Virus record (IMG/VR): IMGVR_UViG_3300024327_000005
Coordinates: 22-64,021 of that record
Direction: 5' to 3' (one strand)
From: a virus
DNA: 64,000 bases
Under the pieces are notes generated by a model. It was given only the letters and a program-made list of their open reading frames with translations. It was not told the DNA's origin and did no database searches. Within the stretch, counting starts at the first letter, position 1, and the number at the start of each line of letters is the position of its first letter. Below are positions 2,653-51,401 of the stretch, piece by piece. The translations under genes were made by a program, and so were the position numbers.

Positions 2653-2724
2653 AGACTCTTAGCTCAACGGTAGAGCAGCGGACTTTTAATCCGTTGGCTC
2701 TGGGTTCGAATCCCAGAGGGTCTA
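2653..2724 (+). tRNA. tRNA-Lys(TTT), CCA not encoded
   Basis: full cloverleaf: AGACTCT/AGGGTCT, loop CTTTTAA, T-loop TTCGAAT. Confidence 0.93.
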
Positions 2725-22815: not shown

Positions 22816-23637
22816 TTGTTAAAGACTTTTAACTTAAATGATTCAAAACTGAATTATCACCAAAAAATAATAAAAAAAATACAAACTGACTTGTCAGCAT
22901 TACCAGAAAGATTCTGGAAAACAAACCCTATTATCAGCGGAAGCTATGCGGTCCACCTTCTGTTCAAACCGGCAACTTTATATGACGATATCGACGTTTA
23001 TTTCGAAACCGAAAAGGACTTCTTGGACTGCACTAAAGTTCTGAAAGGGCTTATTGAAAGCAACCCATTACCAAATGGGGGACAGATTTATCCCGCAAAG
23101 AACTCCACTACTTATCTTTATGATTTTGCAAAAATACAATTGATAAATAAAGCGTTCATGCCTCCGCAGAATCTGATTTATGATCACGATTTAAAAAACG
23201 TCTCAATCGCAATACAAGGTACTGATATTTATCTTGACGATGAAATCTTTAGTCTTTTTTGGAATGATAAGATTTCTATAAGATCGACACAAATAACAGA
23301 CGATATGTCCGACAAAGATAAGATGATTAAAATTGCAAATCTTTATTATCGTGTTAAAAAGTATGCGCTAAAGTATGATTTAATTCCCGACTATGAATCG
23401 AGAATTATCTTAACCGAGCTGCTTGACTTCCTAGAAGCGATGCCAGAAAACATTAAAGAAACTACCTATGTAGACAGTAGCATCTACTACGGCTCATATA
23501 CTGCATCTCAAAAGAATAAATCTTCGATATCTGTAACAATTCATCGAATGAGAGTAGATTTAGCTCATATGAACCAAATCGAAAACTCATCTTTAGATGA
23601 GCACGAATCCTCAGTTAATAGCTGGTTGGAGTTCTAA
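22816..23637 (+). CDS. Pol-beta superfamily nucleotidyltransferase-like protein
   Basis: PIISGSYA...YDDIDVYF (G[GS]x13DxD), KIQLI. Confidence 0.65.
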   Translation: MLKTFNLNDSKLNYHQKIIKKIQTDLSALPERFWKTNPIISGSYAVHLLFKPATLYDDIDVYFETEKDFLDCTKVLKGLIESNPLPNGGQIYPAKNSTTYLYDFAKIQLINKAFMPPQNLIYDHDLKNVSIAIQGTDIYLDDEIFSLFWNDKISIRSTQITDDMSDKDKMIKIANLYYRVKKYALKYDLIPDYESRIILTELLDFLEAMPENIKETTYVDSSIYYGSYTASQKNKSSISVTIHRMRVDLAHMNQIENSSLDEHESSVNSWLEF

Positions 23638-23668: not shown

Positions 23669-23875
23669 ATGAAAACAATATGCTTAAACTTGCAAGATTG
23701 CGGTTATAGCGAAGTTATACCTGCTTCCCGGTTTAACGAAATCAACCTCAATGAACCCTTCACTACCTGTCCTCTCTGCGGGTATTACGCAGTGACTACA
23801 TCTCAAAATGTAATTTCAGATATAGACTTAAATATATATAAAAAGATATACAAACAATTAAGGAAAGATGAATGA
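23669..23875 (+). CDS. small zinc-ribbon protein
   Basis: CLNLQDCG...CPLCG; overlaps the start of the 966-aa gene. Confidence 0.55.
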   Translation: MKTICLNLQDCGYSEVIPASRFNEINLNEPFTTCPLCGYYAVTTSQNVISDIDLNIYKKIYKQLRKDE

Positions 23876-26772
23876 TCTTTATTAACCTCCTCGCTAATAT
23901 AGCCCCATCGAATTTAAATAGACAGCCCTACATAGACGCTCTCACTAAGCTTATAGTGATGGAGGATCCAGAGTCTCCAAATACGACTTACTATTCTGGT
24001 AATTTATCCGAAGCAATCAGGAATACAGAAGGCGTTGGTAATTTCGTTGAATCCTTAAACCCAACTCTATTTAAGGATGAAGATTCAACGTTTCCGCTAA
24101 TAGACGTAATTCACATGCGGAATAGCGTTATAAATCTAAATAGCATTTTAAGATCTTCGTATCCAAACACATCTTTTTGGAATCGATATCTCAACGGTAA
24201 TGTCGCGCAATTAAGTGCCCAACATCCAACGCTGCTTGCAAATGCATTATGCTTGAATCAGAACTTCAGAAATATTACCGGGTACAATCGAAGAGAACCT
24301 AATCTTTATTTTTCTAAAATCTACGAGGCATTCAAATGCACTAGAGGTTTAAACGAAAAGATATCAATCAACAACGAAGCTCATGCGTCGTTGTTAAATG
24401 ATCAAAAAAATCTATGCGCTGTTAGCAGATTCAAACCTCACATATTGCAAATCGACAACAATCAACACACTGTAAAGGATCAGCATCAAGTTTTTCGGTA
24501 CCTAAGAGACTTCATTCTAATCACGCTAGCGCTGAAAGAAAAGCCAGAAGAGAGTACGGACGAAGTGTTGAAGCAGTTGGAGTCTGTAATTCCTGACGAA
24601 AGTCTTTTTGCATATACTCAAACAAGACGCACAGATAACGATACCAGTTTCAATAACTTGAATTTCAATAGAATCACCACTACGCTGTTAGCTCAGTCGC
24701 CAGAAGAACTAACTCGACAGGTAAATTCTATAGACAGCTTAACTTTCAACACTTATATCAAGCAAAACCGCCTGGGCCTTTTCGATGGGAAAGAAGTTTT
24801 CTCTTTTTTCTCAAAAGCGTTTTTTCAAAAATTCTTACATATTTCAAACAAGAAATCAGTACATGAAGACGCTTCTGAATCAGAGATACTTCAAAACATT
24901 GTTTGTTTCGATACGATTCCGCCAATAGACCTCCAATTAGCGCCGTCTAAAGGTAACCATAATAACTGGAGCTATGGTGACGGCTTGTCTTCTGAACCAG
25001 CCCATTCTCGTGCAATGATCCTTCCAAGTCAAGATTCTAATGCAGATTTCATCCCAATTGGCCTTGGTACTGGAGTTACATTCATGCATGGAGCGCAAGA
25101 CATTTACTCAATAAAACTACAAGAACACATTGAGTCTTTACCCCAATCAAGAGTCGTTGGGTTGATTTCTAATGGGTTCACAAAAAGAACCCAAAAAGAA
25201 AAGTTTGAATTCATATCACTTACAAAGAAACAGTCAACGATTCGAAAAGGGTTTTTCATACCCACATTATTTCCAATCGAATACAGAGATGAGAACTTTG
25301 AAATACAAAAAGGATATTCGTTCTCCTTAGTTTGTTTAAGTTCTACATATGACGAAATGTGTAATAAGTCAAGAAGCAGAGAGGAGTTGCTTAATATGCT
25401 GAGTAACTACCAGACAACTGACGGTATGTATTTTATCGACAAGGCTCAGCACATAGCCTTACAGAAAGAGATCATGAAGGGGTTAATAGAGTACTCAAAC
25501 TCTCTAATCCCATCTTTCAAGGATTTAAGTCCACAAAGCCTCAACTCGCTTAAGGCTACCTTAAAAGCGAAGAAGGAAAAAGCAGAAACCTTTTTATCTA
25601 CTATTGATATTGATTTTTTCGATCACTTATCTTCTGAACCAAATGTAAATCCTCTTATAAAAAAGAAATACAACAAAGTATCCACAGGCTACAATCGCTT
25701 ATCTAAAATAAATACTGAAAAAGAAAATTCCTCAGTATTAGCTAGTGCTAACGTTGAGTCCCAGCTGGGTGCAATTGACACAAAAATGGCACAAATCGAA
25801 ATCTTTAAGCAAGAGATCGCTAAATCCGAAATTGAAATTACGAAACACTTAGCGAACCTAAAGGAAAGTTTTAACTCTCGAGTAGAGATATCCAGCACAC
25901 TAATGCTGAACCGAGAACTATACGAATCAGTTAAAATTCGTTATGAATCTGCATGTCAAAAAGCTAAGGACGATAAAGATTACATTAGTAATGGGTTCTT
26001 TAAAAACTTATCAATCAGTAACCAGATCACCATTTTTGAACTAATTCTGACAGACGAGACTGACTCAGATAATCAAATAAAATATGATCAAGATTTTTTC
26101 AATGCTAATGGAAATGCGAATTTCCAATCTTTTGATAAAAATGTGCATAAGATCCAAAGTGTAAAATTTTTAATTAATTCTCCTTCGATAATTAGCGTAG
26201 ATAATGGCGCAAAAAGTAGTATTTGCGGCGGACCCTACGTCGTCTCTGTTTTTAGAGGTGCGTTACAAATCGCTTTGGCCTATCCAAGCTCAATACATGG
26301 AGTTTCAAATGGTGACATCCTTGTACATCCTCATTCATCGCAAATTAGAAAGAATAATTTTGTAACTCAAACCCAAGAGTATCAATGGATGTCTGCCTGT
26401 CTCGGTGAAGCATCCTCTCTGATCTATAGCGCTTTCGAAAGTAACAATTTGAAAACAATTTTGCTGGCAGCATTAACTTGGGTTAAAAGCGCCAACAGTA
26501 CCGATGTCTGGGGCAAAAGATATAAATTTTTCCCAAAAGCAACTGAAATAAACTTCGAAACTAATCCACCTACAAGTCCTGCTGTCGACGAAGAGGTCAT
26601 TAACGAAGATGAAATTCACGACTTTCTGGAAGAAATGATTTCTGAAGATTCAACTGAAGCTGAATCAGAGATTGAAATAGTACCCTCCGAAGAGCCAGAA
26701 GCTCAAGGATTTTCACCTGATCAATTTGCTCAACCTGTAACTGGCTATGTACCAGCCTATAATCGATCTTGA
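23872..26772 (+). CDS. large protein: unknown N-terminus, coiled coil, C-terminal E2/UBC-like domain, acidic tail
   Basis: HPH (819-821) then SACLG (Cys843) and helices ending W..SANSTDVWG; first gene of an E2-JAB-E1-Ubl cluster. Confidence 0.65.
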   Translation: MIFINLLANIAPSNLNRQPYIDALTKLIVMEDPESPNTTYYSGNLSEAIRNTEGVGNFVESLNPTLFKDEDSTFPLIDVIHMRNSVINLNSILRSSYPNTSFWNRYLNGNVAQLSAQHPTLLANALCLNQNFRNITGYNRREPNLYFSKIYEAFKCTRGLNEKISINNEAHASLLNDQKNLCAVSRFKPHILQIDNNQHTVKDQHQVFRYLRDFILITLALKEKPEESTDEVLKQLESVIPDESLFAYTQTRRTDNDTSFNNLNFNRITTTLLAQSPEELTRQVNSIDSLTFNTYIKQNRLGLFDGKEVFSFFSKAFFQKFLHISNKKSVHEDASESEILQNIVCFDTIPPIDLQLAPSKGNHNNWSYGDGLSSEPAHSRAMILPSQDSNADFIPIGLGTGVTFMHGAQDIYSIKLQEHIESLPQSRVVGLISNGFTKRTQKEKFEFISLTKKQSTIRKGFFIPTLFPIEYRDENFEIQKGYSFSLVCLSSTYDEMCNKSRSREELLNMLSNYQTTDGMYFIDKAQHIALQKEIMKGLIEYSNSLIPSFKDLSPQSLNSLKATLKAKKEKAETFLSTIDIDFFDHLSSEPNVNPLIKKKYNKVSTGYNRLSKINTEKENSSVLASANVESQLGAIDTKMAQIEIFKQEIAKSEIEITKHLANLKESFNSRVEISSTLMLNRELYESVKIRYESACQKAKDDKDYISNGFFKNLSISNQITIFELILTDETDSDNQIKYDQDFFNANGNANFQSFDKNVHKIQSVKFLINSPSIISVDNGAKSSICGGPYVVSVFRGALQIALAYPSSIHGVSNGDILVHPHSSQIRKNNFVTQTQEYQWMSACLGEASSLIYSAFESNNLKTILLAALTWVKSANSTDVWGKRYKFFPKATEINFETNPPTSPAVDEEVINEDEIHDFLEEMISEDSTEAESEIEIVPSEEPEAQGFSPDQFAQPVTGYVPAYNRS

Positions 26773-26796
26773 TACATTAAAAAAAAGAAAAAATAG

Positions 26797-27915
26797 ATGC
26801 AATCCATAACTACATATAAAGTTTTAAATAACTTGCCTTACATTAATATAACCTATAAGGGGCTTTTAGCAATTAAAGAAATTGTAAAAATTGCGCCCCA
26901 AGAAGCTCAATGGTTCCATACTGTTGAACCCTTTGCTTACAAGCAATCCCCACATGAAATTCAACTACTTTTGTCTGATAAGATTTACATTCCAAGTCAA
27001 AACACTTCAGCAGTACAAGTAGACACTACATCTGCAATGATGATGGATTTTTATAAAGACCTACAAAAAGACTATCAAGACCAGAATGTTGTGAACCAAA
27101 AACTTACAGCAATGACGTGCTGGTGTCACAGCCATCACAACATGTCTCCAAATCCCAGCCATCAAGACGATTTACAATTCAACTCCTTTATCTCTCTCGC
27201 AAAAGATCAGGAGCAGAAATCTTGGCAAATTATGCTAATTTTTAACAAGAAAGATCAATTCTATTCAAGAGTTTATGACCCCCACACGGCTACAGTCCAC
27301 GAGGGTGTGCCTGTTAATATAATCAATGATTACAATTTCAATTACATACATCAGGCTGCTAAAGATAAGTTCAAAAAGCCTAAGTTAGCCCCCAAAAATT
27401 TGTGGTCTTTCAATCAAGGTAGTTTTGGTGCCAAATCTTCAGCCCCAAAGACGGCAGCATCCCTAGACTTGAAGCCCACAGGTGGGCAATCTGTCAATTG
27501 GGAAATTGCCATCGAAATACTGGCAGAAGCTTTCGATTGGTATAGCTTCGAAAGCTTATCGACGAGCCAACACAATAAAAAGATTGACTTTACTGAGCTT
27601 AGAACTAGCGACTTCTTTGCTACATTAGCAAAATATCTAGATGACAAAGAAATTATATTGTTTTCATATTTAGTTTCTAAGCGGGCATCTGACATATTGC
27701 CTATATTTACAGAAAAAGCATTTGAAAAGAAATTTGCACTAGCTGACTATGATGATTTCGAAGCCGCAATTATAGAAGAATATACTTCTTGCATTGAAAA
27801 TGAAACTTTTACTCTAAGTGAGATAAGTGAAGCGCTGCAAGATACATTAAAATTAACTGAAATTTCTACAAAAAAAGATTGCAAGGAGTTCCTTAAAGAA
27901 AATGGTCACATCTAA
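26797..27915 (+). CDS. JAB/JAMM (MPN+) metalloprotease with C-terminal extension
   Basis: E36 plus H111-x-H113-x7-S121-x2-D124, the canonical JAMM motif. Confidence 0.85.
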   Translation: MQSITTYKVLNNLPYINITYKGLLAIKEIVKIAPQEAQWFHTVEPFAYKQSPHEIQLLLSDKIYIPSQNTSAVQVDTTSAMMMDFYKDLQKDYQDQNVVNQKLTAMTCWCHSHHNMSPNPSHQDDLQFNSFISLAKDQEQKSWQIMLIFNKKDQFYSRVYDPHTATVHEGVPVNIINDYNFNYIHQAAKDKFKKPKLAPKNLWSFNQGSFGAKSSAPKTAASLDLKPTGGQSVNWEIAIEILAEAFDWYSFESLSTSQHNKKIDFTELRTSDFFATLAKYLDDKEIILFSYLVSKRASDILPIFTEKAFEKKFALADYDDFEAAIIEEYTSCIENETFTLSEISEALQDTLKLTEISTKKDCKEFLKENGHI

Positions 27916-28624
27916 CGTAAGTTTTTTAAGACATGGTGCCTTTTTTGGTCCTGAAGATTCTCAAGAGCGAATACTGAACATTATTGGCGTTGGCGCAACA
28001 GGAAGTTGGGTTGGATATCTAGCTGCAAAAATGGGCTGGCAGCACTTCCGAGTATGGGACGCAGACACGGTAGAGAGCCACAATCTGCCCAACCAGATAT
28101 ATGATATCTCTCAGGTTGGGATGCCAAAGGTTGAGGCATTCAAGCAAAAACTGCTTGAATTCAACCCAACTGTACAAGTCAAGACCTATAATGAGTTTTA
28201 TACTTCTGAAAAGTACAGAAACGAATTGGAAGATTATGTGTTTATTGGTGTCGACACTCTGTTCGCACGCAAAGATATAATGGAGGGAGCTAAATCACAT
28301 TTACTGATAGAGGGAATCTTCGAAAGTCGAATGGGGTTTCAGCACGCTGAAATAAACTATCTAGATCCAGCCTACCCTTCTCAAGTGGACGAGTACCTGT
28401 CTCTCTTGAAAACCGATGATGAAGTTGAAGAAAGCGCGTGTAATGCACGTATAATCACAACTTTAACTTGTATAATCGCCTCAAACATAGTACATACTAT
28501 TTGCGCTCTTGCAGCGCAAGAAAGACACGGGGAGTGTTATGCTCCTCCAAAAAAACAAATGTTTTCTCTTCCTTCTAACATAAATACCCCCTTATCAATC
28601 CATACACCAAGGATAGCTAAATGA
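27902..28624 (+). CDS. ThiF/E1-like ubiquitin-activating enzyme
   Basis: R10, IIGVGATGS, WDADTVESHNLPNQ, IGVDT, ESRMG, candidate catalytic Cys180 (ESAC). Confidence 0.9.
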   Translation: MVTSNVSFLRHGAFFGPEDSQERILNIIGVGATGSWVGYLAAKMGWQHFRVWDADTVESHNLPNQIYDISQVGMPKVEAFKQKLLEFNPTVQVKTYNEFYTSEKYRNELEDYVFIGVDTLFARKDIMEGAKSHLLIEGIFESRMGFQHAEINYLDPAYPSQVDEYLSLLKTDDEVEESACNARIITTLTCIIASNIVHTICALAAQERHGECYAPPKKQMFSLPSNINTPLSIHTPRIAK

Positions 28625-28809
28625 CAGTTAAAGATCAACTTCAAGAAGTTCTAACTCTAATTACAGCAGCAGTTCAAGATGCTGAAAAATTTGACTCTGG
28701 TAACGATACCGCTGGAAAGCGGTTACGTATGGCTGCACAAGAAGCCAAAACAAAACTTCAACAACTTCGAGTAAACATCCAAGAAGAGAGAAACTCAAGA
28801 AAACAATAA
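28621..28809 (+). CDS. histone H1-like Hc1-family small protein
   Basis: DAEKFDSGNDTAGKRLR...LR..IQE resembles the GNKAAGTRAR motif family. Confidence 0.6.
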   Translation: MTVKDQLQEVLTLITAAVQDAEKFDSGNDTAGKRLRMAAQEAKTKLQQLRVNIQEERNSRKQ

Positions 28810-28853
28810 ATAACACTCGTGGTATCGAGTTAAAATACTAAACATATTAATTT

Positions 28854-28879
28854 AAAAGGAAGCCTGGCTTCCTTTTTTT
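28854..28879 (+). terminator. intrinsic terminator
   Basis: AAAAGGAAGC-CTG-GCTTCC followed by T7. Confidence 0.75.
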
Positions 28880-28899
28880 GTATTACTTAAGGAAAATAA

Positions 28900-29118
28900 A
28901 TGAACAACATCACACTAATAATCATCCCCGGCCCTGGCGCTCGCTCTGTCCAAATCGATCAAAACATTACTGTTGCTAGCTTGGTCTGCTCAGAAAACCT
29001 ACACGGTAGAGATATTATTATTAACGGCGCCGGAGTTCCGGCGGCACAATTCGAAACCACAACAATTCCTAACGATGCAGAAGTCTTCGCAACTGGATCG
29101 GTGAAGGGCAACCGTTAG
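28900..29118 (+). CDS. ubiquitin-like (ThiS/MoaD beta-grasp) protein Ubl-1, precursor ending KG|NR
   Basis: 70-aa core ...EVFATGSVKG; lies in the E1/E2/JAB cluster; paralogous to Ubl-2 and Ubl-3. Confidence 0.8.
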   Translation: MNNITLIIIPGPGARSVQIDQNITVASLVCSENLHGRDIIINGAGVPAAQFETTTIPNDAEVFATGSVKGNR

Positions 29119-29423
29119 TGGGTGCATGCACCTTTTTTGATGAAGCATTTGGAGATTCAGCTGAAGAAGCCTTTCAAGCAGCAAAATCAGATGCAAATTG
29201 GATGCATGGCCACGCCGGTTATACCGGAACTATTGCTGAAAAAAACGACTTCTCTATGGCTTCAAACGAACTCTTAGCAGAAGTCGCAGCTTACAAGCTC
29301 GCCAGATCTCTCATCGCTACTGACTATTGCGACAAGTGGGGGCTTGCTGGATGCATCCAAATCACTAATTCACCTAACAATTCACTTAACAAATATTTAT
29401 TCTTTGGCTGGGCTTCTGAATAA
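29118..29423 (+). CDS. conserved phage hypothetical protein X1
   Basis: GTG start overlaps the Ubl-1 TAG; HGHAGYTGTIAEK motif. Confidence 0.7.
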   Translation: MGACTFFDEAFGDSAEEAFQAAKSDANWMHGHAGYTGTIAEKNDFSMASNELLAEVAAYKLARSLIATDYCDKWGLAGCIQITNSPNNSLNKYLFFGWASE

Positions 29424-29460
29424 GTATCCAGCCAAACACATCTAGAACTAACCAACACAC

Positions 29461-29480
29461 AAGGAGTGAAAACTCCTTTT
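29461..29480 (+). promoter_or_regulatory. GNRA-capped hairpin before Ubl-2 (terminator or processing signal)
   Basis: AAGGAGT-GAAA-ACTCCTT-TT. Confidence 0.45.
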
Positions 29481-29503
29481 CAACATATAAGAAGAAAAAA
29501 ATT

Positions 29504-29746
29504 ATGTCTAACGCTACATTAATCATTATACCTGGACCTGGCGCTCGTTCTATTCAGTTGGATTCCAACATGACGATTGCTCAACTTGTTTGTAGAGAAA
29601 ATCTACACGGTCGTGACATCATCATTAACGGCACTGGAGTTCCAGTGGCACAATTCGAAACACAAATCATTCCTAATGGTGCAGAAGTTTTTGCAACCGG
29701 CTCTGTAAAGGGCAACTCTTTAAATTTTACCATGCGTCTTCTTTAG
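29504..29746 (+). CDS. ubiquitin-like protein Ubl-2, precursor KG|NSLNFTMRLL
   Basis: 56/70 residues identical to the Ubl-1 core (hand count). Confidence 0.8.
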   Translation: MSNATLIIIPGPGARSIQLDSNMTIAQLVCRENLHGRDIIINGTGVPVAQFETQIIPNGAEVFATGSVKGNSLNFTMRLL

Positions 29747-30018
29747 GGGCTGGAGCTAAGCAAGCTTACTCAAATCTGATTGAATCAGAAAGTGCTTGGA
29801 AGGAACACTCAAGTATTCCTTCCGCATTCCTAGAGACTAAAAGGTACAAGATCGTCATAACGACCCCTTTTAGCACTGAAGAAGACGCCTTGGATTTCAT
29901 TTCAACCAACTCTCCTTTTAAAATGCGTTCTAAGACTGCTGGATGCGTAATCCTTGGAGTTGAAGACGGACTAACTAACTACTTATTTTTTACACAAACA
30001 CAGGATAAAAATGACTAA
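29719..30018 (+). CDS. start-less paralog X2 of X1 in the -1 frame of Ubl-2 (frameshift fusion or pseudogene; not in ORF track)
   Basis: 99 open codons FKFYHASSLG...KTAGCVIL...TNYLFF; no ATG/GTG/TTG until codon 58; begins at TTTAAATTTT. Confidence 0.55.
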   Translation, partial: FKFYHASSLGAGAKQAYSNLIESESAWKEHSSIPSAFLETKRYKIVITTPFSTEEDALDFISTNSPFKMRSKTAGCVILGVEDGLTNYLFFTQTQDKND

Positions 30019-30325
30019 CATCACATTAATAATCATACCTGGCTCTGGCGCTCGCCAAGTCTCAGTACAACCTGGTTCTACTATTGCAGACCTTGTTTCA
30101 AATGAAAATCTTCACGGTCGAGATATCATCGTTGACGGCGCTGGTGTTCCAGCGACGCTCTGGGCAAGCACTCAGGTAACCTCAAATGCAGAAATTTTCG
30201 CAACGGGCTCCGTAAAAGGCAATGCCAAAGGCGGAGGTCGACCTGCTAATGCTCCATCAGGAACTGGCCGCCCTTCTGGGGGTGGCCGAGGCAACAATCC
30301 TCCATCCTCTGGCTCTAAAAAATAA
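30011..30325 (+). CDS. ubiquitin-like protein Ubl-3 with a 34-aa Gly/Pro/Ser/Asn-rich C-terminal extension
   Basis: same 70-aa core ending FATGSVKG, then NAKGGGRP...GGGRGNNPPSSGSKK. Confidence 0.8.
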   Translation: MTNITLIIIPGSGARQVSVQPGSTIADLVSNENLHGRDIIVDGAGVPATLWASTQVTSNAEIFATGSVKGNAKGGGRPANAPSGTGRPSGGGRGNNPPSSGSKK

Positions 30326-30496: not shown

Positions 30497-31384
30497 ATGA
30501 AATCGAACAAGTCAGTCTTAAAGGAAGTTTTAATTCCTGATGAAATTTTTATCGACTTTTACAGAGACGGCATTATAGCGCAGTCAATGGCCAATCTGCT
30601 CAAACTTAATCCTGGCGAATACTGTTTTGTTTTGGACTCAGACAATAATAAGGCTGTTGCGATCAATATAGACAACAATCTCATACTTATGGATTCGTTT
30701 AAAAATAAAACAATAAACGGCTTTTCTCCAAAAGACTTGCTGCAGACTATTTATTTCAATTTACTTGAGCAAGAGTCTATGATTGTAGTTGCTGCATTAG
30801 GTCCCGCTGGCACCGGAAAGACTACAGTTGCCTTAACAAAAGCAATTGCAGATTACTTTTCTGATAGGAAAAAGATATACTTATGCAAACCTACTCATCT
30901 GGTTAAAACTCACGAGAATCAAGTTTTTGGACCAGTACCAGGAGACATGCAGGAGAAGTATACGCCTTATCTAGGAAGTTTTGAAATTATACTAAACAAG
31001 ATGTTAGGCAGCGACGGTGGCGACTACTTAAAAAGCATGATAGAAAAGAAACACATCGAATTTATGCCCGTAGAATTCACTCGGGGATGTACCTTCGAAA
31101 ACTGCACGTTCATCTTAGATGAGGCGCAGAATTTATCTTGGCATGAACTAAAAACAGTGCTATCAAGAATAGGCGAAAAAAGCAAAATAATACTTTGCGG
31201 AGACCCTAACCAAATTGATGCAAACTTTAAATATATTCATAGCGGACTTTACACGCTTCTAAATTCACCTTCCTTTAAAAGCTCTACTTTTACTTCAAAG
31301 ATAGAGCTTAAAAAACAATACAGAGGTCGGATACCCGACCTCATCTATAACATAGATAAAGAATTAATTAAGGACAACCAATGA
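30497..31384 (+). CDS. phoH: PhoH-family ATPase
   Basis: GPAGTGKT, RGCTF, ILDEAQN, SRIGEKSKIILCGDPNQID. Confidence 0.92.
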   Translation: MKSNKSVLKEVLIPDEIFIDFYRDGIIAQSMANLLKLNPGEYCFVLDSDNNKAVAINIDNNLILMDSFKNKTINGFSPKDLLQTIYFNLLEQESMIVVAALGPAGTGKTTVALTKAIADYFSDRKKIYLCKPTHLVKTHENQVFGPVPGDMQEKYTPYLGSFEIILNKMLGSDGGDYLKSMIEKKHIEFMPVEFTRGCTFENCTFILDEAQNLSWHELKTVLSRIGEKSKIILCGDPNQIDANFKYIHSGLYTLLNSPSFKSSTFTSKIELKKQYRGRIPDLIYNIDKELIKDNQ

Positions 31385-31818
31385 CATACCCTTCAAGTTT
31401 TAACATTTATAAAAAAGCAGCCGCTGCCCAGTTCACTGTCTTACCCCCAAGGAGGGACGACAACGGACGAATTAATAAAAATGGCGCTGTACTCCTGGAG
31501 ATGGCTCCATCATCCGGAGAGAAAACTTATGATTGGAAAAACAATAAAGTAACTTTCGCATTTGGCATCAACGATTTATGCTTATTTTTCGACGACCCAA
31601 ACGCGCCTAAATGGGGATCATTCTTCCATGTAAACGATTCCACCAATAAGAAGTTAACATTCAGCCATGGAGAAGGCAAATATGCTGGTACGTATATGAT
31701 GTCACTCATGATGGGTGAAAATCGCGTGAGCGTAAGTTTGACTGGCGGCGAATTTAATGTTCTCGGCCGACTATTCTCAGCAGCAATTCCGATCATTCTC
31801 GGTTGGAACAATGTTTGA
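31381..31818 (+). CDS. Whirly-like single-stranded DNA-binding protein
   Basis: IYKKAAA, GAVLLEMAP..G.KTYDW, FFH, EFNVL..LF...IP.ILGW follow plant WHY1 motifs in order. Confidence 0.7.
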   Translation: MTYPSSFNIYKKAAAAQFTVLPPRRDDNGRINKNGAVLLEMAPSSGEKTYDWKNNKVTFAFGINDLCLFFDDPNAPKWGSFFHVNDSTNKKLTFSHGEGKYAGTYMMSLMMGENRVSVSLTGGEFNVLGRLFSAAIPIILGWNNV

Positions 31819-32086: not shown

Positions 32087-32500
32087 ATGTTTTCATACTC
32101 CATTTCAGTCAGACGCATCAACAACCCAAACAGTAAGCTTAAAGCTTTCGCTACCGTGACCATCGACGACCTTCTTGACCTTGAAGGCTTTAAGGTCATA
32201 GACGGCGCAAAAGGGCTTTTTGTAAGCGTCCCCTCACACAAAGGCAATGTTGTCGAAGACGGAATCTCTGTCGAGAAATACTTTGATGACGTCCGCTTTA
32301 AAGGCGAAGAGGGTATAGCTTTTGCAGAAGAGCTCAAGTCTTCTATCATCAGCGAATATTCAAGCTCTAGCTCGCAAACAGTAAAGAAACCAAACCGAGC
32401 AGCTGCAGCCACAGCAAACGTAAAGGCAAGTGCTAAAAACAACGAAACCAATAGCGATTCCACACCACCAAGAGATCGTAAGCCTCTCTGGGGTTATTGA
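32087..32500 (+). CDS. spoVG: SpoVG-family nucleic-acid-binding protein
   Basis: KLKAFATVTIDD...GFKVIDGAKGLFVSVPS...YFD. Confidence 0.85.
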   Translation: MFSYSISVRRINNPNSKLKAFATVTIDDLLDLEGFKVIDGAKGLFVSVPSHKGNVVEDGISVEKYFDDVRFKGEEGIAFAEELKSSIISEYSSSSSQTVKKPNRAAAATANVKASAKNNETNSDSTPPRDRKPLWGY

Positions 32501-38827: not shown

Positions 38828-39865
38828 ATGGCAAATAAAAAAATTACAGGGATCCCCGAAATTGATATGATTGCAGCTTCTATTGCCAAGAAATTTGGCA
38901 AAGAAGACATTATGAGTTTAGGACCTAAATATGAAAAAGTTACACCAATCTCTACAGGCTCAATATCTTTGGATGCTTGTCTTGGCGTTGGAGGCTTACC
39001 TAATGATCGTGTCGTCGAAATATATGGTCCGCCCAGTGCCGGAAAAACCTCTCTCTGCCTACAAGTACTTAAACAGTTTACAGAAAAATATGGATATGAC
39101 AGACCTCCTGTCTATGTTGATCTTGAACGCACTACTGGTTTGGATCTTGTCACTTCTATGGGGCTCGAACCAAAAAAAATGATTTTTTGTTATCCTGACA
39201 CCGCCGAAGAAGCACTTCAGCTCTGTCAAGACCTTGGTAAGACAGGTAAAGTCGGCATAATAGTTTTTGATAGTATTGACGCTGCTCAAAGCGAAAAAGA
39301 CACAAAAAGATTAATGAATGAAACGGGAGTAGGCGACTTACCTCGCTTACTTTCAAAAGCTTTGCGTTCTATATCCAAGATAAGCGTTGATAACGAATGT
39401 CTATACTTGTTTATTAATCAAGTTAGAATGAAAATTGGCGTTATGTATGGGAACCCAGAAACAACTTCAGGTGGCAACGCCATACCTTTTTACTGCTCGG
39501 TTCGACTTCGAGTAAGCAGTAAGCCCTCTAAAGATCAAGATGGCGCCATAACAATGAAGGTTAAAGTTGTCAAAAACAAAGTTGCTCCCGCTTTAAATAA
39601 AACTGCTGAGTTTGACTTTATATGTGGAAAAGGCACAGATCCTTATTTAGACATAATTGGTTATGCTAAAGACGTAGGGTTGATGAGGTTTGCAGGCTCA
39701 TCCGTCAAGTGGATAAACCCTGCAACAAAAGAAGAAGAGTCTCTTTGTACTGGTGGTAAGCTGGGGGCGAAAAGTCATTTTATTGACAACCCAGAGGACT
39801 ACCAACTGCTATATCATCATATCCTCAGTTCAGATAGAGAAGACGAGAATGAAGATGACGCATGA
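38828..39865 (+). CDS. recA: RecA recombinase
   Basis: STGSISLD, GPPSAGKT, VFDSI, FINQVRMKIGVMYGNPETTSGGNA. Confidence 0.95.
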   Translation: MANKKITGIPEIDMIAASIAKKFGKEDIMSLGPKYEKVTPISTGSISLDACLGVGGLPNDRVVEIYGPPSAGKTSLCLQVLKQFTEKYGYDRPPVYVDLERTTGLDLVTSMGLEPKKMIFCYPDTAEEALQLCQDLGKTGKVGIIVFDSIDAAQSEKDTKRLMNETGVGDLPRLLSKALRSISKISVDNECLYLFINQVRMKIGVMYGNPETTSGGNAIPFYCSVRLRVSSKPSKDQDGAITMKVKVVKNKVAPALNKTAEFDFICGKGTDPYLDIIGYAKDVGLMRFAGSSVKWINPATKEEESLCTGGKLGAKSHFIDNPEDYQLLYHHILSSDREDENEDDA

Positions 39866-41183
39866 CTGCTCCAGGCATACAGCTAAAAATAGTCAGGATA
39901 TAACCTCCAACCACACTGAGTCAAAGTATGTACATCTACATGTGCACACAGAATACTCTTTGCTTGATGGCATAAATAAGGTCTCTAGGCTCCCATCTTT
40001 TGTTAAAACTATGAATCAGCCAGCAGTTGCAATGACAGATCATGGTAACATTTCTGGGTGTTATAGGTTTTACAAAGAGTGCAACAAAGTAAATGTTAAG
40101 CCCATAATAGGCATGGAAGCTTACTATTCCATTAACGACAGAACTCTTCGAGAGCCAGACGAAATGGGAAAGAGCTATTACCACTTAATCCTTTTGGCTC
40201 AAAATAATATTGGCTTACACAACTTAATAAAGCTGTCCTCTAAAGCCTATACCACTGGCTTCTATAGGAAGCCTAGGATTGATGATAAACTTCTTGCAGA
40301 CCACTCGGAAGGTCTAATCGCTACCACTACTTGCTTGGGTAGTCGCGCCTCTCAGCTGATACTAAATAACGAAATTACTGCAGCCGAAAAATTAATTCAT
40401 CATCATCGAGCCATATTCAAAGATAGATTCATCGTTGAATTACAATTGCACCGAGAAGAAGAACAGCAGGCTGTAAATAAAGTCTTGCAGCAAATCGCTT
40501 TAAAAAACAACTTCCCGATGATAGTCACAAACGATTGTCATTACGCTTATGAGCATGATAAAATGCATCATGAAGCAGCATTATGCTTGCAGACTAAGAC
40601 AACGTTGTCGAATCCAAAGAGGTTTTCATTTGGTGAAATAAAAGTTCATATGGCAGATCATGACTGGATGTGGAACGAATCTTCAAATCAAGGAATGCCA
40701 TACGACGTTATTTCGAACACTGTCGAACTTGCGAATATGATAGATTCAGACACTTATTTTATGGACAGGATGAACAGGTACCCGAAGTTTAAAGACCTTC
40801 CCGAAGGTTATACTAGCATTGACTTTTTAGCTCTAGAAAGCCAGCATGGACTATTCAATAGGTTTGGTCAGATGCCGACTTTGGAATATCAAAACAGATT
40901 GACTCATGAACTTAATGTAATCAAAAAGATGGGATTCTCTGACTACCTGTTGATTGTAGCTCAGTTTATGGATGGAGCGCGAACAAGAGGTGTCCTTCAT
41001 GGGCCTGGTCGTGGCTCTGCTGCAGGGTCCCTAATCGCTTATGCACTAGGCATCACTGAAGTTGATCCAATCAAATACGGTTTAATCTTTGAAAGATTTT
41101 TAAATGAAGGTCGAGGAGCTACCCCTCTGATCTTCAACAAGCAAATGGCCATCAAAGCAGATGGCATAACTATACCTTTTTAA
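39849..41183 (+). CDS. dnaE: DNA polymerase III alpha (DnaE) part 1: PHP domain through the GRGS/FERFLN palm segment
   Basis: HLHVHTEYSLLDG, TDHGN, TNDCHY, GPGRGSAAGSLIAY, FERFLNEGR, then a short tail and stop. Confidence 0.9.
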   Translation: MKMTHDCSRHTAKNSQDITSNHTESKYVHLHVHTEYSLLDGINKVSRLPSFVKTMNQPAVAMTDHGNISGCYRFYKECNKVNVKPIIGMEAYYSINDRTLREPDEMGKSYYHLILLAQNNIGLHNLIKLSSKAYTTGFYRKPRIDDKLLADHSEGLIATTTCLGSRASQLILNNEITAAEKLIHHHRAIFKDRFIVELQLHREEEQQAVNKVLQQIALKNNFPMIVTNDCHYAYEHDKMHHEAALCLQTKTTLSNPKRFSFGEIKVHMADHDWMWNESSNQGMPYDVISNTVELANMIDSDTYFMDRMNRYPKFKDLPEGYTSIDFLALESQHGLFNRFGQMPTLEYQNRLTHELNVIKKMGFSDYLLIVAQFMDGARTRGVLHGPGRGSAAGSLIAYALGITEVDPIKYGLIFERFLNEGRGATPLIFNKQMAIKADGITIPF

Positions 41184-41943: not shown

Positions 41944-43566
41944 ATGGATCAAAAAAGAAAAGAAATATTACAGTACATTGATAAATGTATTATAGATGAA
42001 AGAATTAATCAAGTAGACCCTGATTTCCTAGAGTTTGAAATTAAAATGTCTTCTTTAAAAGATTTACAAATGATTTCAGACTGCTTGTATTCAGTTGCGA
42101 ACCTTCAAGATAAAGATCTTCACTTACCAATTTTCGCTAACAACCCCTATAATAGTATCTTACTTTATATAACTAGGTTGACAGATGAATTTGATTTTTT
42201 AAAAGCCAGGTCAAATACTATAGACGGATCTCCTCCTGATATTGATATTGACCATGATGCTTTAGATCGAGAAATTGCAATCGAGTGGTGTGCTGATTAT
42301 TGGGGTCAAGATAAAGTAGCGAATATAATAACGCACGGAACCTTTAAGCCAAAAAGTCTTGCTCGCTCTTATTATCGAATCACTGAAAAAGAGTCTGAAG
42401 ATTTAAGCGAGCTGTTAAAGAAGATTCCTCCACCTAAGTTTGGTAAGGAAGCTACATTAGAAGAGGTTCTTGAATTGAACCCTGAAGTTAAAGACGATGA
42501 GAGATATGGAGACTTCTTGGAATTCGCTGACAGGATAGAGGGCATGGTATCTAATTTTGGTATCCATGCCGCTGGAATTATCATTAGTGATAACGACATA
42601 GATGATATAGTCCCGCTATGGAAGAATAAAAAAGCTGAAAGAATAACTCAATTCGACAAAGACGAATGTGAAGAGTTAGGTCTGATTAAATTCGACTTCT
42701 TGGGAATAGATACTCTTTCTATAATTAAAGAGTGTGTGAGCCTTGTTGAAGAAAACCATGATGTTAAATTAAATCCATACGCTATTGAAGATTTTGACGA
42801 AGCCACATATGCCACATTAGACAAAGGCTTACTCACAGGAGTCTTTCAGATGGAAACTTCTGGCGTGGCTAAAAAGCTCATTGTAAAAATTAAACCAAGA
42901 TCTATAGAAGATTTATCTGCTATTTCTGCTTTGAACAGACCAGGTCCGCTACAAGCGGGACTCGACAAAGAATACATAATCAACAAATATAATAACGCTC
43001 CACCATCAAGTCTTCCAGAAAACATAGCTAACATTTTAAAAAGTTCATACTGGACTCTTGTCTATCAGGAGCAAGTTATGGAAATCTGTTCTAGTATCGC
43101 TGGGTTCACTCCCAAAGAAGCCGATGACATTAGGAGAGCTATGGGCAAGAAGAAAGTAGAAGTACTCAACGAGTATCAAAAGAAATTTGTAACTGGGTGT
43201 ATTTCTGTAGGTGGCTTATCAGAATCCTATAGTCAAGACCTATGGGAAAACCTTGTGGGATTCGCAGACTACTGCCTGCATGGAAGCACAAAGATCAAGG
43301 CTCAAGGTGGAGCCTTAAGTATTGAAAGTATTGTTAAAAACAAAATTCCTGCGACTATCGTTTCTGCTGATACTAATTCTGAAAGATTTTATTTACAAAG
43401 AGTTGCTCAATGGTATGAAAAAGGCAAAAAGAAATGTTATAAGTACGTAACAGATACTGGAGCTGAGATTTCTTGCACTCCAGAACATAAATTTTTAACT
43501 ATTAATAACGAAATGGTTGAAATTGAATCCATATATGAACGAAACTTAATATTAAAAACACAATAA
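41944..43566 (+). CDS. dnaE: DnaE part 2: catalytic palm/thumb/fingers fused to split-intein IntN
   Basis: PPDIDID, HAAG, KFDFLG, GVFQME, LNRPGP, VYQEQVM, RRAMGKK, FADY|CL. Confidence 0.92.
   Translation: MDQKRKEILQYIDKCIIDERINQVDPDFLEFEIKMSSLKDLQMISDCLYSVANLQDKDLHLPIFANNPYNSILLYITRLTDEFDFLKARSNTIDGSPPDIDIDHDALDREIAIEWCADYWGQDKVANIITHGTFKPKSLARSYYRITEKESEDLSELLKKIPPPKFGKEATLEEVLELNPEVKDDERYGDFLEFADRIEGMVSNFGIHAAGIIISDNDIDDIVPLWKNKKAERITQFDKDECEELGLIKFDFLGIDTLSIIKECVSLVEENHDVKLNPYAIEDFDEATYATLDKGLLTGVFQMETSGVAKKLIVKIKPRSIEDLSAISALNRPGPLQAGLDKEYIINKYNNAPPSSLPENIANILKSSYWTLVYQEQVMEICSSIAGFTPKEADDIRRAMGKKKVEVLNEYQKKFVTGCISVGGLSESYSQDLWENLVGFADYCLHGSTKIKAQGGALSIESIVKNKIPATIVSADTNSERFYLQRVAQWYEKGKKKCYKYVTDTGAEISCTPEHKFLTINNEMVEIESIYERNLILKTQ
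43273..43563 (+). other. split intein N-half (97 aa), DnaE type
   Basis: CL..T.I...VAQW...G...T.EHKF.T...I.ER.L matches cyanobacterial Npu/Ssp DnaE IntN; block B TxxH present. Confidence 0.92.
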
Positions 43567-51287: not shown

Positions 51288-51401
51288 ATGAAAATAATTT
51301 CAAAGGAGTACCTTGGAGAAGAAGAAGTTTATGATATTGGTGTAGCTTCTTTGGAAGGCAATCATAACTTTGTTCTCGAGAATGGAATTATAGCTTCTAA
51401 T
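51288..51401 (+). other. split intein C-half (38 aa)
   Basis: MKIISKEYLGEEEVYDIGV...HNFVLENGIIASN then Cys+1; compare Npu MIKIATRKYLGKQNVYDIGVERDHNFALKNGFIASN. Confidence 0.93.

What the first reader, a model, noticed from the sequence alone, without database searches (positions are those of the whole stretch)
23872..30325. Phage-encoded, apparently complete ubiquitin-like conjugation system (E2 + JAB + E1 + three Ubls)
Seen in the sequence: contiguous same-strand genes for a 966-aa protein with an HPH...ACLG (Cys843) E2-like C-terminus, a JAB protease with an intact E36/H111-x-H113-x7-S121-x2-D124 motif, a ThiF E1 (GxGxxG, DxDxVxxxNL, Cys180), and three 70-aa beta-grasp paralogs all ending FATGSVKG|N. 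No ThiG, MoaE or other sulfur-carrier pathway partner is recognisable nearby. Established: E1-E2-JAB-Ubl sets mediate protein conjugation in bacterial Bil anti-phage systems, and CBASS Cap2/Cap3 use E1-E2 and JAB domains. Inference: here the machinery is on the virus side and could tag host or phage proteins, or counter host Ubl defences. The ~700-aa N-terminal/coiled-coil part of the E2 protein could act as a built-in E3-like substrate recruiter.
Basis: partly seen in the sequence, partly recalled or inferred. Interest (0 to 1): 0.93.

Follow-up and report, generated by a model that had tools for sequence, protein, structure and literature searches.

The report
Phage ubiquitin-like tagging gene module
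An uncultured marine phage, like a large group of its relatives, carries what looks like its own ubiquitin-style protein-tagging kit (activating enzyme, candidate carrier enzyme, trimming protease and several tag genes built like ubiquitin precursor genes); such kits were previously described only on the bacterial, anti-phage side.

Summary

- **Activating enzyme (E1):** a ThiF-family protein (Pfam 1.5e-22).
- **Protease:** has a perfect JAMM motif.
- **Tags (Ubls):** three 70-aa ThiS-like proteins end in VKG-N. The Asn follows KG in 122 of 122 homologues, and the tails that follow run from 0 to 41 residues.
- **Candidate E2:** the C-terminal domain of the 966-aa protein is a new family of at least 274 clusters with no Pfam match. 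A pLDDT-90 model finds nothing with Foldseek. In an exhaustive structural search, 42 of the top 50 matches are E2/UEV/RWD folds, but every Z is 4.2 or lower. The E2 call is therefore plausible, not proven.

New findings:
- A relative carries a head-to-tail di-Ubl gene.
- Ubl2 is very probably fused to a start-less downstream protein by a conserved -1 frameshift at A_AAT_TTT.
- A conserved 4-Cys zinc-ribbon gene and a Gad2-like gene sit just upstream.
- The module keeps the same gene order in nine of ten related contigs; the tenth breaks off just after the E2-like gene. No sulfur-pathway genes are nearby.

Best reading, about 0.6: a phage-encoded Ubl conjugation pathway whose target is unknown. 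Rivals are a sulfur-carrier pathway and C-terminal-Asn chemistry.

The scan had already noted the frameshift idea on this same window.

The parts
22816..23637 (+). Gad2-like nucleotidyltransferase-fold protein (273 aa); conserved upstream neighbour of the module
   Evidence: 54% identical (E 1e-86) to the L002 protein that carries Pfam PF26128 Gad2. The same position is held in L002-L007, L010 and L012. No Pfam hit for the window copy itself.
23669..23875 (+). Small 4-Cys zinc-ribbon protein (~68 aa from the internal ATG; the ORF is listed from 23597). Its end overlaps the start of the 966-aa gene by 4 nt. Candidate adaptor or E3-like partner (inferred).
   Evidence: C5, C11, C34 and C37 are invariant in 7 diverged loci. 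Weak Pfam Zn_ribbon_9 hit. Always lies directly upstream of the large gene.
23872..26772 (+). 966-aa protein: poorly conserved N-terminal ~690 aa with no recognisable domain, plus a conserved C-terminal domain
   Evidence: 12 full-length homologues, all from metagenomes; alignment. No Pfam, PHROG or PADLOC family. Atlas search of residues 1-700 uninformative.
25939..26586 (+). C-terminal candidate E2-like domain (residues 690-905) with invariant GGPY, H819-P-H821, C843-L-G-E, W870, D878-x-W-G
   Evidence: At least 274 clusters at E<=1e-3 among 1.84 billion representatives. Invariant residues in 115 sequences. No Pfam family in any member. AF2 model pLDDT 90, pTM 0.83. Foldseek against PDB, AFDB and Swiss-Prot gave nothing. 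In VIA-align against 48,161 chains, 42 of the top 50 are E2/UEV/RWD; the best is E2S at Z 4.2, rmsd 4.5 A over 112 residues.
26797..27915 (+). JAMM/JAB metalloprotease (N-terminal ~195 aa) with a variable C-terminal ~170 aa
   Evidence: Invariant E36, H111xH113x7S121x2D124. Pfam Prok-JAB E 0.004, below cut-off. PADLOC JAB models E 0.001-0.02. No sequence match in the PDB.
27902..28624 (+). Minimal ThiF-type E1 (240 aa, a single adenylation domain, no CxxC zinc motifs) with invariant Cys180
   Evidence: Pfam ThiF 1.5e-22. PADLOC E1-E2 models down to 1e-11. Invariant residues. PDB relatives include ThiF-type 9egb, PaaA, UBA5, TcdA, MoeB, ThiF, MccB, Cap2 and BubCD.
28621..28809 (+). Hc1 histone-H1-like small basic protein; start overlaps the E1 stop by 4 nt; lineage-specific accessory gene
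   Evidence: Pfam Hc1 8.6e-12. Present in L002-L007 but absent in the remote L011 and L012.
28854..28876 (+). Strong intrinsic-terminator-like hairpin separating the enzyme genes from the Ubl genes
   Evidence: 10-bp stem followed by a T run.
28900..29118 (+). Ubl1: 70-aa ThiS-like core ending VKG, then N-R-stop
   Evidence: Family evidence.
29118..29423 (+). X1: 101-aa protein of unknown function (GYTGTIAEK, invariant AGC[IV], FLFFGWAS). GTG start overlaps the Ubl1 stop (TAGTG).
   Evidence: Conserved after a Ubl gene in L002, L004 and L006. Homologous to X2 (hhalign 94.9%, E 4e-8). No Pfam, PHROG or PDB match. Contigs from RNA libraries cover it.
29504..29746 (+). Ubl2, zero-frame product: 70-aa core plus N-SLNFTMRLL
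29722..29728 (+). A_AAT_TTT slippery heptamer in phase with the Ubl2 frame (overlaps T_TTA_AAT at 29719-29725); proposed -1 ribosomal frameshift site
   Evidence: The heptamer is conserved and in phase in the window, L002 and L007, while the flanking codons differ.
29728..30018 (+). X2: 96 codons in the -1 frame with no ATG/GTG/TTG near its start; proposed C-terminal part of a 171-aa Ubl2-X2 fusion
   Evidence: The -1 frame reads YHASSLGAGAK..., conserved in three genomes with almost only synonymous differences, starting exactly at the heptamer. X2 has its own ATG in L004 and L006. An independent DNA run and one RNA-library contig span the site without an indel.
30011..30325 (+). Ubl3: 70-aa core plus N plus a 33-aa Gly/Pro/Arg-rich tail (…PSGTGRPSGGGRGNNPP…)
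   Evidence: This tail class recurs with a conserved sequence in many homologue clusters.

Best explanation
This is a phage-encoded ubiquitin-like protein conjugation module, conserved across a large lineage of uncultured marine phages. Every biochemical step below is inferred; none was shown.

1. The Ubls are made as precursors. The forms are single genes with tails of 0 to 41 residues, a head-to-tail di-Ubl in a relative, and a Ubl2-X2 fusion made by -1 ribosomal frameshifting.
2. The JAMM protease trims them at the invariant VKG|N junction and exposes Gly70.
3. The minimal ThiF-type E1 adenylates that carboxylate and probably takes it onto Cys180.
4. The Ubl passes to Cys843 of the C-terminal domain of the 966-aa protein. 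That domain is a very divergent UBC-like fold with an HPH...C active-site arrangement.
5. The large, fast-evolving N-terminal region of that protein would choose the target, perhaps together with the small zinc-ribbon protein. In that case the protein would work like an E2/E3 hybrid.

The target (host or phage protein) and the biological role (host takeover, counter-defence or assembly) are unknown.
For: **Components**
- E1 is a clear ThiF-family member with intact adenylation residues and an invariant Cys180.
- The JAMM motif is complete and invariant.
- The Ubls are ThiS-like. JGI names several homologues 'sulfur carrier protein ThiS'. TIGR01683 matches 5 of 13 copies weakly. Atlas neighbour clusters carry ThiS/SAMP2.

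**Precursor-type gene organisation**
- Asn follows KG in 122 of 122 homologues, then comes a hypervariable tail.
- L004 carries a di-Ubl gene.
- The Ubl2-X2 frameshift fusion is conserved in three genomes.
- In Bil systems the JAB enzyme likewise pre-processes the Ubl (PMC10557695).

**Candidate E2**
- Invariant HPH and Cys in 115 sequences.
- The model has pLDDT 90.
- 42 of the 50 best structural matches among 48,161 chains are E2/UEV/RWD. They include the bacterial Cap2, CdnG-E2 and BubB, at 3.7-4.5 A over 104-116 residues.
- That range is the same as the published BubB versus UBE2D2 comparison, 3.8 A over 104 C-alpha atoms (PMC11601596).

**Context**
- The order Zn-ribbon, large protein, JAB, E1, Ubl is strictly kept in diverged contigs.
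- No sulfur-pathway partners are found.
- E1 (71-81% identity) and the Ubls (63-80%) are far more conserved than the large protein (33-47%) between the same genomes.
Against: - All E2 structural matches have Z 4.2 or lower, below the level the tool regards as reliable.
- Foldseek finds no E2 in the PDB, AFDB clusters, Swiss-Prot or the Atlas.
- No E2 HMM matches: UQ_con, Pfam and PADLOC were tried.
- The domain has more strands than a UBC core, and its HPH-to-Cys spacing of 21 residues is longer than in classical E2s.
- The Ubl fold was not modelled, and the Pfam ThiS model gives no hit.
- The Ubl C-terminus is KG-N rather than GG. The absolute invariance of the Asn, even where it is the last residue, is not explained by simple trimming.
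- JAB + E1 + extended Ubl also occurs in sulfur-carrier pathways.
- No target and no biochemical data exist.
Confidence: 0.6

Rival explanations
1. This is a sulfur-carrier pathway of the QbsCDE / CysO-Mec-MoeZ type. The JAB enzyme trims the ThiS-like protein, the E1 adenylates it, and a thiocarboxylate donates sulfur to a small molecule or a nucleic-acid base. The Cys of the large protein would act as a persulfide relay or acceptor enzyme.
For: - The small proteins are ThiS-like and are named so by JGI.
- The nearest solved relatives of the E1 include MoeB, ThiF, Uba4 and TcdA.
- JAB + E1 + Ubl triads with C-terminal extensions are known in sulfur transfer (own knowledge; Iyer 2006, PMC1779556).
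- The E2 assignment is weak.
Against: - No rhodanese, PP-loop ATPase, ThiG or MoaE gene is in the record, and no sulfur-pathway gene is in ten related contigs.
- The C-terminus is KG-N, not GG.
- Three to four Ubl paralogues, a di-Ubl and Ubl-cargo fusions are atypical for sulfur carriers.
- The partner domain resembles E2 folds, not sulfurtransferases.
Confidence: 0.15
2. The invariant Asn itself is the reactive C-terminus, as in microcin C (MccB/MccA). Tails would be removed after Asn. The E1 would adenylate the Asn carboxylate, which cyclises to a succinimide. That gives either an adenylated end product or an activated end that reacts without classical thioesters.
For: - Asn follows KG in 122 of 122 homologues.
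- At least 27 clusters, plus L011, L012, L002 copy c and L006 copy a, end exactly at Asn.
- The E1-like enzymes PaaA and MccB are among the closer solved relatives, at 1.5e-11 and 7e-8.
Against: - The E1 lacks the N-terminal peptide-clamp domain of MccB; it is 240 aa with an adenylation domain only.
- MccB substrates are short peptides, not folded beta-grasp proteins.
- A JAMM protease and a Cys/His partner enzyme are not part of microcin C systems (own knowledge).
- UBA5, MoeB and ThiF score similarly to MccB.
Confidence: 0.1
3. The module does not conjugate at all. It acts as a counter-defence decoy or eraser: the JAB enzyme strips host Bil or CBASS conjugates, and the Ubls or the E1 titrate host enzymes.
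For: - The Gad2-like gene, from an anti-Gabija family, is a constant neighbour.
- JAB peptidases reverse Bil and CBASS conjugation (PMC10557695, PMC11601596).
Against: - The catalytic residues of the E1 and the HPH/Cys of the large protein are invariant over a deep family. That argues for active chemistry rather than decoys.
- The Ubls show no detectable similarity to the PADLOC models.
Confidence: 0.08

Closest known systems
Bacterial Bil (BilABCD) anti-phage ubiquitination-like systems
   Same: Same four roles in one gene cluster: Ubl, E2-type Cys enzyme, JAB peptidase and E1. The Ubl is made with extra C-terminal residues that the JAB enzyme is expected to remove. No separate E3 is present.
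   Different: - It is encoded by a phage, not a bacterial defence island.
- The E1 is a single 240-aa adenylation domain, not the tandem inactive-active-Cys architecture.
- The candidate E2 is the C-terminal domain of a ~1000-aa protein and matches no Prok-E2 model.
- The Ubls are single ThiS-like domains in 1-4 copies, not ISG15-like tandem domains.
- The junction is KG|N.
Type II CBASS Cap2 (E1-E2 fusion) and Cap3 (JAB)
   Same: E1, E2-like and JAB activities lie next to a nucleotidyltransferase-fold gene. The Cap2 E2 domain is among the structural matches (Z 3.5), and the PADLOC E1-E2 models hit the E1.
   Different: - E1 and E2 are not fused.
- Free Ubl genes are present, whereas CBASS conjugates the CD-NTase itself.
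- The neighbouring transferase is Gad2-like and was not shown to be a CD-NTase.
Eukaryotic ubiquitin precursor genes (polyubiquitin, ubiquitin-ribosomal protein fusions) and large E2/E3 hybrid enzymes such as UBE2O and BIRC6 (own knowledge)
   Same: Head-to-tail Ubl repeats, Ubl-cargo fusions, one extra residue after the last Gly, an HP[N/H]...Cys order in the carrier domain, and a carrier domain embedded in a very large protein.
   Different: No detectable sequence homology to ubiquitin or to UBC. The fusion is made by frameshifting. The organism is a phage.
ThiS/MoaD-ThiF/MoeB sulfur-carrier pairs and JAB-containing variants (QbsCDE, CysO/Mec+)
   Same: ThiF-type adenylating enzyme, a ThiS-like ~70-aa protein, and JAB trimming of a C-terminal extension.
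   Different: No sulfur-acceptor or sulfur-donor genes. The end is KG-N instead of GG. There are multiple paralogues and fusions, plus an obligate large Cys/His partner protein.
Lambda/T1 tail-assembly TAPI (Ubl) and TAPK (JAB-NlpC/P60) (Iyer 2006, PMC1779556)
   Same: This is the only previously described phage pairing of a Ubl with a JAB peptidase.
   Different: It has no E1 and no E2-like enzyme and lies in the tail-gene context. Here the module sits among replication and host-takeover genes.

Membership tests
ThiF/MoeB/E1 adenylating enzymes (PF00899) | Match to the family profile above the curated cut-off | tested here: met
   80.3 bits against a cut-off of 28.1, E 1.5e-22.
ThiF/MoeB/E1 adenylating enzymes (PF00899) | Nucleotide-binding GxGxxG, DxD...NL motif, catalytic Lys and Asp, Cys in the crossover region | tested here: met
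   G29xG31xxG34, D53xD55, K76, D118 and C180 are invariant in 7 homologues. The Arg of the usual NLxRQ motif is replaced (NLPNQ).
JAMM/MPN+ metalloproteases | E...HxHx7Sx2D zinc-binding and catalytic motif | tested here: met
   E36, H111, H113, S121 and D124 are invariant in 5 homologues.
JAMM/MPN+ metalloproteases | Profile match above the curated cut-off | tested here: not met
   Pfam Prok-JAB 17.3 bits against a cut-off of 25. PADLOC JAB E 0.001. No PDB sequence match.
UBC/E2 superfold | UBC fold: N-terminal helix, antiparallel meander, C-terminal helices | tested here: inconclusive
   42 of the top 50 exhaustive structural matches are E2/UEV/RWD, but Z is 4.2 or lower. Foldseek finds none.
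UBC/E2 superfold | Catalytic Cys preceded by an HPN-type motif | tested here: inconclusive
   HPH and Cys are invariant and in the right order, just before the first long helix. The spacing is 21 residues rather than about 8, and residue-level superposition on an E2 Cys could not be obtained.
UBC/E2 superfold | Sequence-profile membership (UQ_con, Prok-E2 families) | tested here: not met
   No Pfam family in any of 115 members. No UQ_con match in the record. No PADLOC match.
ThiS/MoaD/ubiquitin beta-grasp modifiers | Profile match or beta-grasp fold | tested here: inconclusive
   TIGR01683 thiS E 0.03-0.1 in 5 of 13 copies. SAMP2 E 0.15. The Pfam ThiS model gives no hit. JGI names homologues ThiS. 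Atlas neighbour clusters carry ThiS/SAMP2.
ThiS/MoaD/ubiquitin beta-grasp modifiers | C-terminal Gly-Gly | tested here: not met
   The end is Lys-Gly followed by an invariant Asn.
Bil (BilABCD) systems | [quoted passage not shown] | tested here: not met
   The E1 is 240 aa with one ThiF domain spanning residues 23-207.
Bil (BilABCD) systems | Stand-alone bacterial E2 (BilB) and a bacterial defence context | tested here: not met
   The candidate E2 is the C-terminus of a 966-aa protein with no E2 profile match. The context is phage. Only two hits occur in 185,579 species genomes, both on MAG contigs.
Programmed -1 ribosomal frameshift | In-phase X_XXY_YYZ heptamer conserved among relatives | tested here: met
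   A_AAT_TTT is in phase in the window, L002 and L007.
Programmed -1 ribosomal frameshift | Downstream ORF without a start codon, with coding-type conservation in the -1 frame from the slip site | tested here: met
   No ATG, GTG or TTG until 54 codons into X2 (TTG, Leu55 of 96). Differences among the three genomes are almost all synonymous in the -1 frame, starting at the heptamer.
Programmed -1 ribosomal frameshift | Stimulatory downstream RNA structure | tested here: not met
   No conserved or unusually stable structure: consensus -7.8 kcal/mol, z-scores -1.2 to +1.3.

The most novel reading that the evidence does not exclude
Abundant marine phages run their own minimal 'ubiquitin code'. Several Ubl paralogues with different tails, a di-Ubl and a frameshift-made Ubl-cargo fusion are processed at an invariant Gly-Asn junction. 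They are then transferred by a new, very divergent E2/E3-hybrid family onto host or phage proteins. In some relatives this may feed an adjacent AAA+/Lon-N-type unfoldase. Alternatively the chemistry runs through the invariant C-terminal Asn (a succinimide route) rather than classical thioesters.
Probability: 0.2. Interest if true: 0.92.

Novelty: new variant of a known kind. Interest (0 to 1): 0.8.

Why it matters
Ubiquitin-like conjugation in prokaryotes has so far been shown only as a bacterial weapon against phages (Bil, type II CBASS, Bub). A full E1 / candidate E2 / JAB / Ubl set that is fixed in a large, widespread marine phage lineage would put the same chemistry on the virus side.

It would also bring several new things:
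- a new carrier-enzyme family, at least 274 clusters with no Pfam match;
- a minimal 240-aa E1;
- ubiquitin-style precursor genes (a di-Ubl, tails, and a frameshift fusion) outside eukaryotes.

This bears on how ubiquitin gene organisation and E2 enzymes evolved. It also offers a possible new mode of host takeover or counter-defence.

A possibly related triad sits in the cultured Bacteroides phage crAss001 (gp78, gp77 JAB, gp76 ThiF). If the relationship is real, the question becomes testable at the bench.

Tried and rejected
- **DNA and protein searches of deposited phages.** BLASTN of the cluster, and TBLASTN of the 966-aa and JAB proteins, found nothing. Only the E1 finds phage relatives, at under 35% identity.
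- **Peptide-pattern scan of IMG/VR** with the 966-aa protein found nothing.
- **Family searches on the large protein, the Ubls and X1.** Pfam, PHROGs and PADLOC gave nothing. The A4 members show only scattered chance Pfam hits.
- **Foldseek with both models** against the PDB, AFDB clusters, Swiss-Prot and the Atlas gave no E2. It returned only uncharacterised viral or bacterial proteins.
- **Profile searches of the PDB** with the E2-like, JAB, Ubl and X1 alignments gave nothing meaningful.
- **ThiS and UQ_con models** on the phage record gave no match.
- **Downstream frameshift-stimulating structure:** none found.
- **BLASTP of X1 against X2** found nothing. Profile comparison later showed they are homologous.
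- **Atlas search of the N-terminal 700 aa** was uninformative.
- **Literature search for PDB entry 9EGB** gave nothing relevant.
- **Rejected readings.** Chance ORFs are excluded because the genes are deeply conserved. An assembly error at the Ubl2/X2 junction is excluded because three diverged genomes and an independent DNA run share the same frame arrangement.

Full report
**Setting.** The window is nearly the whole of a 65.5-kb IMG/VR virus record that CheckV rates about 40% complete. Almost all its genes lie on the + strand. They include ribonucleotide reductase, a DnaE-type polymerase in three pieces, PhoH and a primase-helicase. Near-identical DNA occurs in more than 20 seawater and marine metagenome runs from many studies. 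No deposited phage genome matches the cluster at DNA level, and none matches the 966-aa or JAB proteins at protein level.

**Check of the observation.**
- The E1 (27902-28624) is a solid ThiF-family member (Pfam 1.5e-22; PADLOC E1-E2 models down to 1e-11). GxGxxG, WDxDxVExHNL, K76, D118 and C180 are invariant in seven homologues, two of them only about 40% identical.
- The 372-aa protein scores weakly on JAB profiles (Pfam E 0.004, below cut-off; PADLOC E 0.001). It nevertheless carries a complete and invariant JAMM motif: E36, H111xH113x7S121x2D124.
- The three small proteins are paralogues, 63-80% identical, and end FATGSVKG-N.
- H819-P-H821 and C843-L-G-E of the 966-aa protein are invariant in 13 full-length homologues.

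**Is the 966-aa C-terminus an E2?** This is the crux.
- A profile of residues 690-905 finds at least 274 clusters among 1.84 billion representative proteins. In full-length members the domain lies at the C-terminal end of a 650-1150-aa protein; the shorter hits look like fragments.
- In 115 diverse members, GGP, HPH, C-x-G, W, D-x-W-G stay invariant. None of the members hits any Pfam family.
- With that alignment AlphaFold2 gives a confident model (pLDDT 90, pTM 0.83).
- Foldseek finds nothing in the PDB, AFDB clusters, Swiss-Prot or the ESM Atlas except uncharacterised, mostly viral proteins.
- An exhaustive VIA-align comparison with 48,161 PDB representatives is strikingly one-sided. By my count 42 of the 50 best chains are E2, UEV or RWD folds. 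Examples: E2S at Z 4.2 and 4.5 A over 112 residues; UbcH5 at 3.7 A over 104; and the bacterial BubB, Cap2 and CdnG-E2.
- Every Z is 4.2 or lower, which the tool itself calls unreliable. On the other hand, the accepted bacterial E2 BubB superposes on human UBE2D2 at 3.8 A over 104 C-alpha atoms (PMC11601596).
- In the model the HPH motif and the Cys lie between the sheet and the first long helix, in the same order as HPN and Cys in E2s. The sheet has extra strands and the spacing is longer.
- My reading: a very divergent UBC-like domain that probably carries the Ubl on Cys843. This is likely, not demonstrated. I could not obtain a residue-level superposition.

**The Ubls.**
- The Pfam ThiS and ubiquitin models do not hit.
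- TIGR01683 (thiS) matches 5 of 13 copies weakly. One copy hits SAMP2 at E 0.15. Atlas feature neighbours include viral clusters carrying ThiS/SAMP2. JGI labels several homologues 'sulfur carrier protein ThiS'.
- The family is large, at 359 clusters in the word-indexed search.
- In the 120 best clusters the residue after KG is Asn in 122 of 122 cases. The tail after it is hypervariable, from 0 to 41 residues. Twenty-seven clusters end exactly at Asn. One tail class, the RGG-like ...PSxTGRPSGGGRGNN..., is itself conserved.
- The remote relatives L011 and L012 each have a single 71-aa Ubl ending KGN.

**Precursor-style gene organisation (new here).**
- In L004 two Ubl units are fused head to tail in one ORF (...VKGN-NSSF-TLIV...).
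- In the window Ubl1 is followed by X1, whose GTG start overlaps the Ubl1 stop.
- Ubl2 is followed by X2. X2 lies in the -1 frame and has no ATG, GTG or TTG until codon 55 of its 96.
- The heptamer A_AAT_TTT (29722-29728) is in phase with the Ubl frame in the window, L002 and L007, although the neighbouring codons differ.
- From exactly that point the -1 frame reads YHASSLGAGAK... in all three genomes, with almost only synonymous differences. The zero frame changes non-synonymously there and stops eight or nine codons after the Asn.
- In L004 and L006, X2 has its own ATG. The protein therefore also works unfused.
- No conserved downstream RNA structure was found. An independent DNA run and one contig from an RNA library cross the site without an indel. 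This argues against assembly error and gives no sign of transcriptional slippage.
- I rate a programmed -1 frameshift giving a 171-aa Ubl2-X2 fusion at about 0.7.
- X1 and X2 are homologous (hhalign 94.9%, E 4e-8). They share an invariant Cys (AGC[IV]) and a YLFF end, and have no known relatives.

**Conserved context.**
- Ten related contigs gave gene tables, among them 159-kb and 172-kb contigs.
- Nine of them keep the order Zn-ribbon (4 invariant Cys), large protein, ~370-aa JAB, ThiF, then Ubl(s). The tenth, the short contig L010, breaks off just after the large gene.
- A Gad2-like gene lies further upstream in most contigs. Some also carry an AAA+ gene there, which in L012 has a Lon substrate-binding domain.
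- An Hc1-like gene follows ThiF in the closer relatives.
- PhoH (absent from one contig), Whirly and SpoVG follow downstream.
- No sulfur-pathway gene appears in any of these tables. ThiG, MoaE, rhodanese and PP-loop models find nothing in the record.
- A strong terminator-like hairpin separates the enzyme genes from the Ubl genes.
- Only two of 185,579 species genomes hold the domain, both on MAG contigs that look like phage.
- Between the same genomes the E1 (71-81% identity) and the Ubls (63-80%) are much more conserved than the large protein (33-47%). That pattern fits a modifier with many partners.

**Mechanism proposed (all steps inferred).**
1. The JAB enzyme trims the precursors at G70|N71.
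2. The E1 adenylates Gly70 and probably forms a thioester on Cys180.
3. The Ubl moves to Cys843 of the UBC-like domain.
4. The N-terminal ~690 aa, perhaps with the zinc-ribbon protein, selects the substrate.

Pre-processing of the Ubl by the JAB enzyme is established for Bil (PMC10557695).

Rivals:
- **Sulfur-carrier pathway.** This fits the ThiS likeness and the E1's relatives, but there are no partner genes, the end is not GG, and the gene organisation is atypical.
- **Chemistry on the invariant C-terminal Asn, as in MccB/MccA.** This would explain the invariant Asn and the genes that end at it. However, the E1 lacks the MccB peptide clamp, and microcin C systems contain neither a JAB enzyme nor a Cys/His enzyme.
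- **A non-conjugating counter-defence decoy or eraser.**

**Comparison with the known.**
- It works like Bil, with the same four roles, but it is not a member. The E1 is a single domain, the E2 candidate matches no Prok-E2 model and is embedded in a ~1000-aa protein, and the host is a phage.
- It is not type II CBASS, because E1 and E2 are not fused and free Ubls are present.
- The only phage Ubl-JAB pair in the literature I could search is the lambda/T1 tail-assembly TAPI/TAPK (PMC1779556).
- Four full-text searches found no report of a phage-encoded E1-E2-Ubl set. The library does not hold most subscription-journal papers.

**Leads.**
- In crAss001, gp78 (HSH...CTG), gp77 (Prok-JAB E 5e-4) and gp76 (ThiF) lie in the same order.
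- In Xanthomonas jumbo phage PhiXhv-12 an 892-aa protein with IHPH...LCLG precedes a ThiF gene.
- Both profile matches are weak (hhalign probability 14% and 7%). These are leads only.

**Verdict.** This is a conserved, probably functional phage Ubl module with a new candidate E2 family and ubiquitin-like precursor genes. Confidence in true conjugation is about 0.6. The target and the biological role are unknown.

Noticed in passing
window 39753-41183, 41944-43566, 51288-52550: The DnaE-type polymerase (phrog_405) is encoded in three separate pieces. The last two lie about 7.7 kb apart, with a 902-aa collagen-like tail-fibre gene (44409-47117) and a 1196-aa ORF with no PHROG match (47150-50740) between them. 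GC content rises to 0.54 at 44-46 kb.
   Followed up: no
L002 15929-16126 and neighbouring frames: A second X2-like copy after Ubl-b in the TARA contig is split over two frames (…ELAWFEEFQIQSPF* in one frame, then …LDLKTYKIVNTQPF… in another). It is either a decaying copy or a second recoding site.
   Followed up: partly
window 30221-30325; many homologues: The Ubl3-type tail (…RPANAPSGTGRPSGGGRGNNPP…K) is itself conserved across many clusters. It looks like an RGG-type low-complexity peptide with a function of its own, not mere padding.
   Followed up: partly
L009 (crAss001 gp78-gp77-gp76) and L008 (Xanthomonas phage PhiXhv-12, 892-aa protein + ThiF): Cultured phages carry ThiF genes annotated 'thiamine biosynthesis protein'. 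Beside each lies a large protein with an HxH...CxG motif, and in crAss001 also a JAB-like metalloprotease. These may be distant relatives of this module. The profile support is weak (hhalign 14% and 7%).
   Followed up: partly
L002 7372-9006, L012 58-1788; contig without DNA: In some relatives an AAA+ ATPase precedes the Gad2-like gene, and in L012 it has a Lon substrate-binding domain. It is absent from the window and from L004.
   Followed up: no
window 2653-2724 and 2817-2889: Two phage tRNA genes: tRNA-Lys(ttt) and tRNA-Met(cat).
   Followed up: no
window 31381-31818, 32087-32500 and relatives: Whirly-family (PF08536) and SpoVG (PF04026) genes follow PhoH in nearly all related contigs. Both are unusual in phages. 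The Pfam assignments come from the relatives' gene tables.
   Followed up: no
L011 5090-5458, L012 9154-9567: In the remote relatives the single Ubl gene is followed, directly in L011 and after one 67-aa ORF in L012, by a small P-loop (GxxxSGKTT) kinase-like protein instead of the X1/X2 proteins.
   Followed up: no
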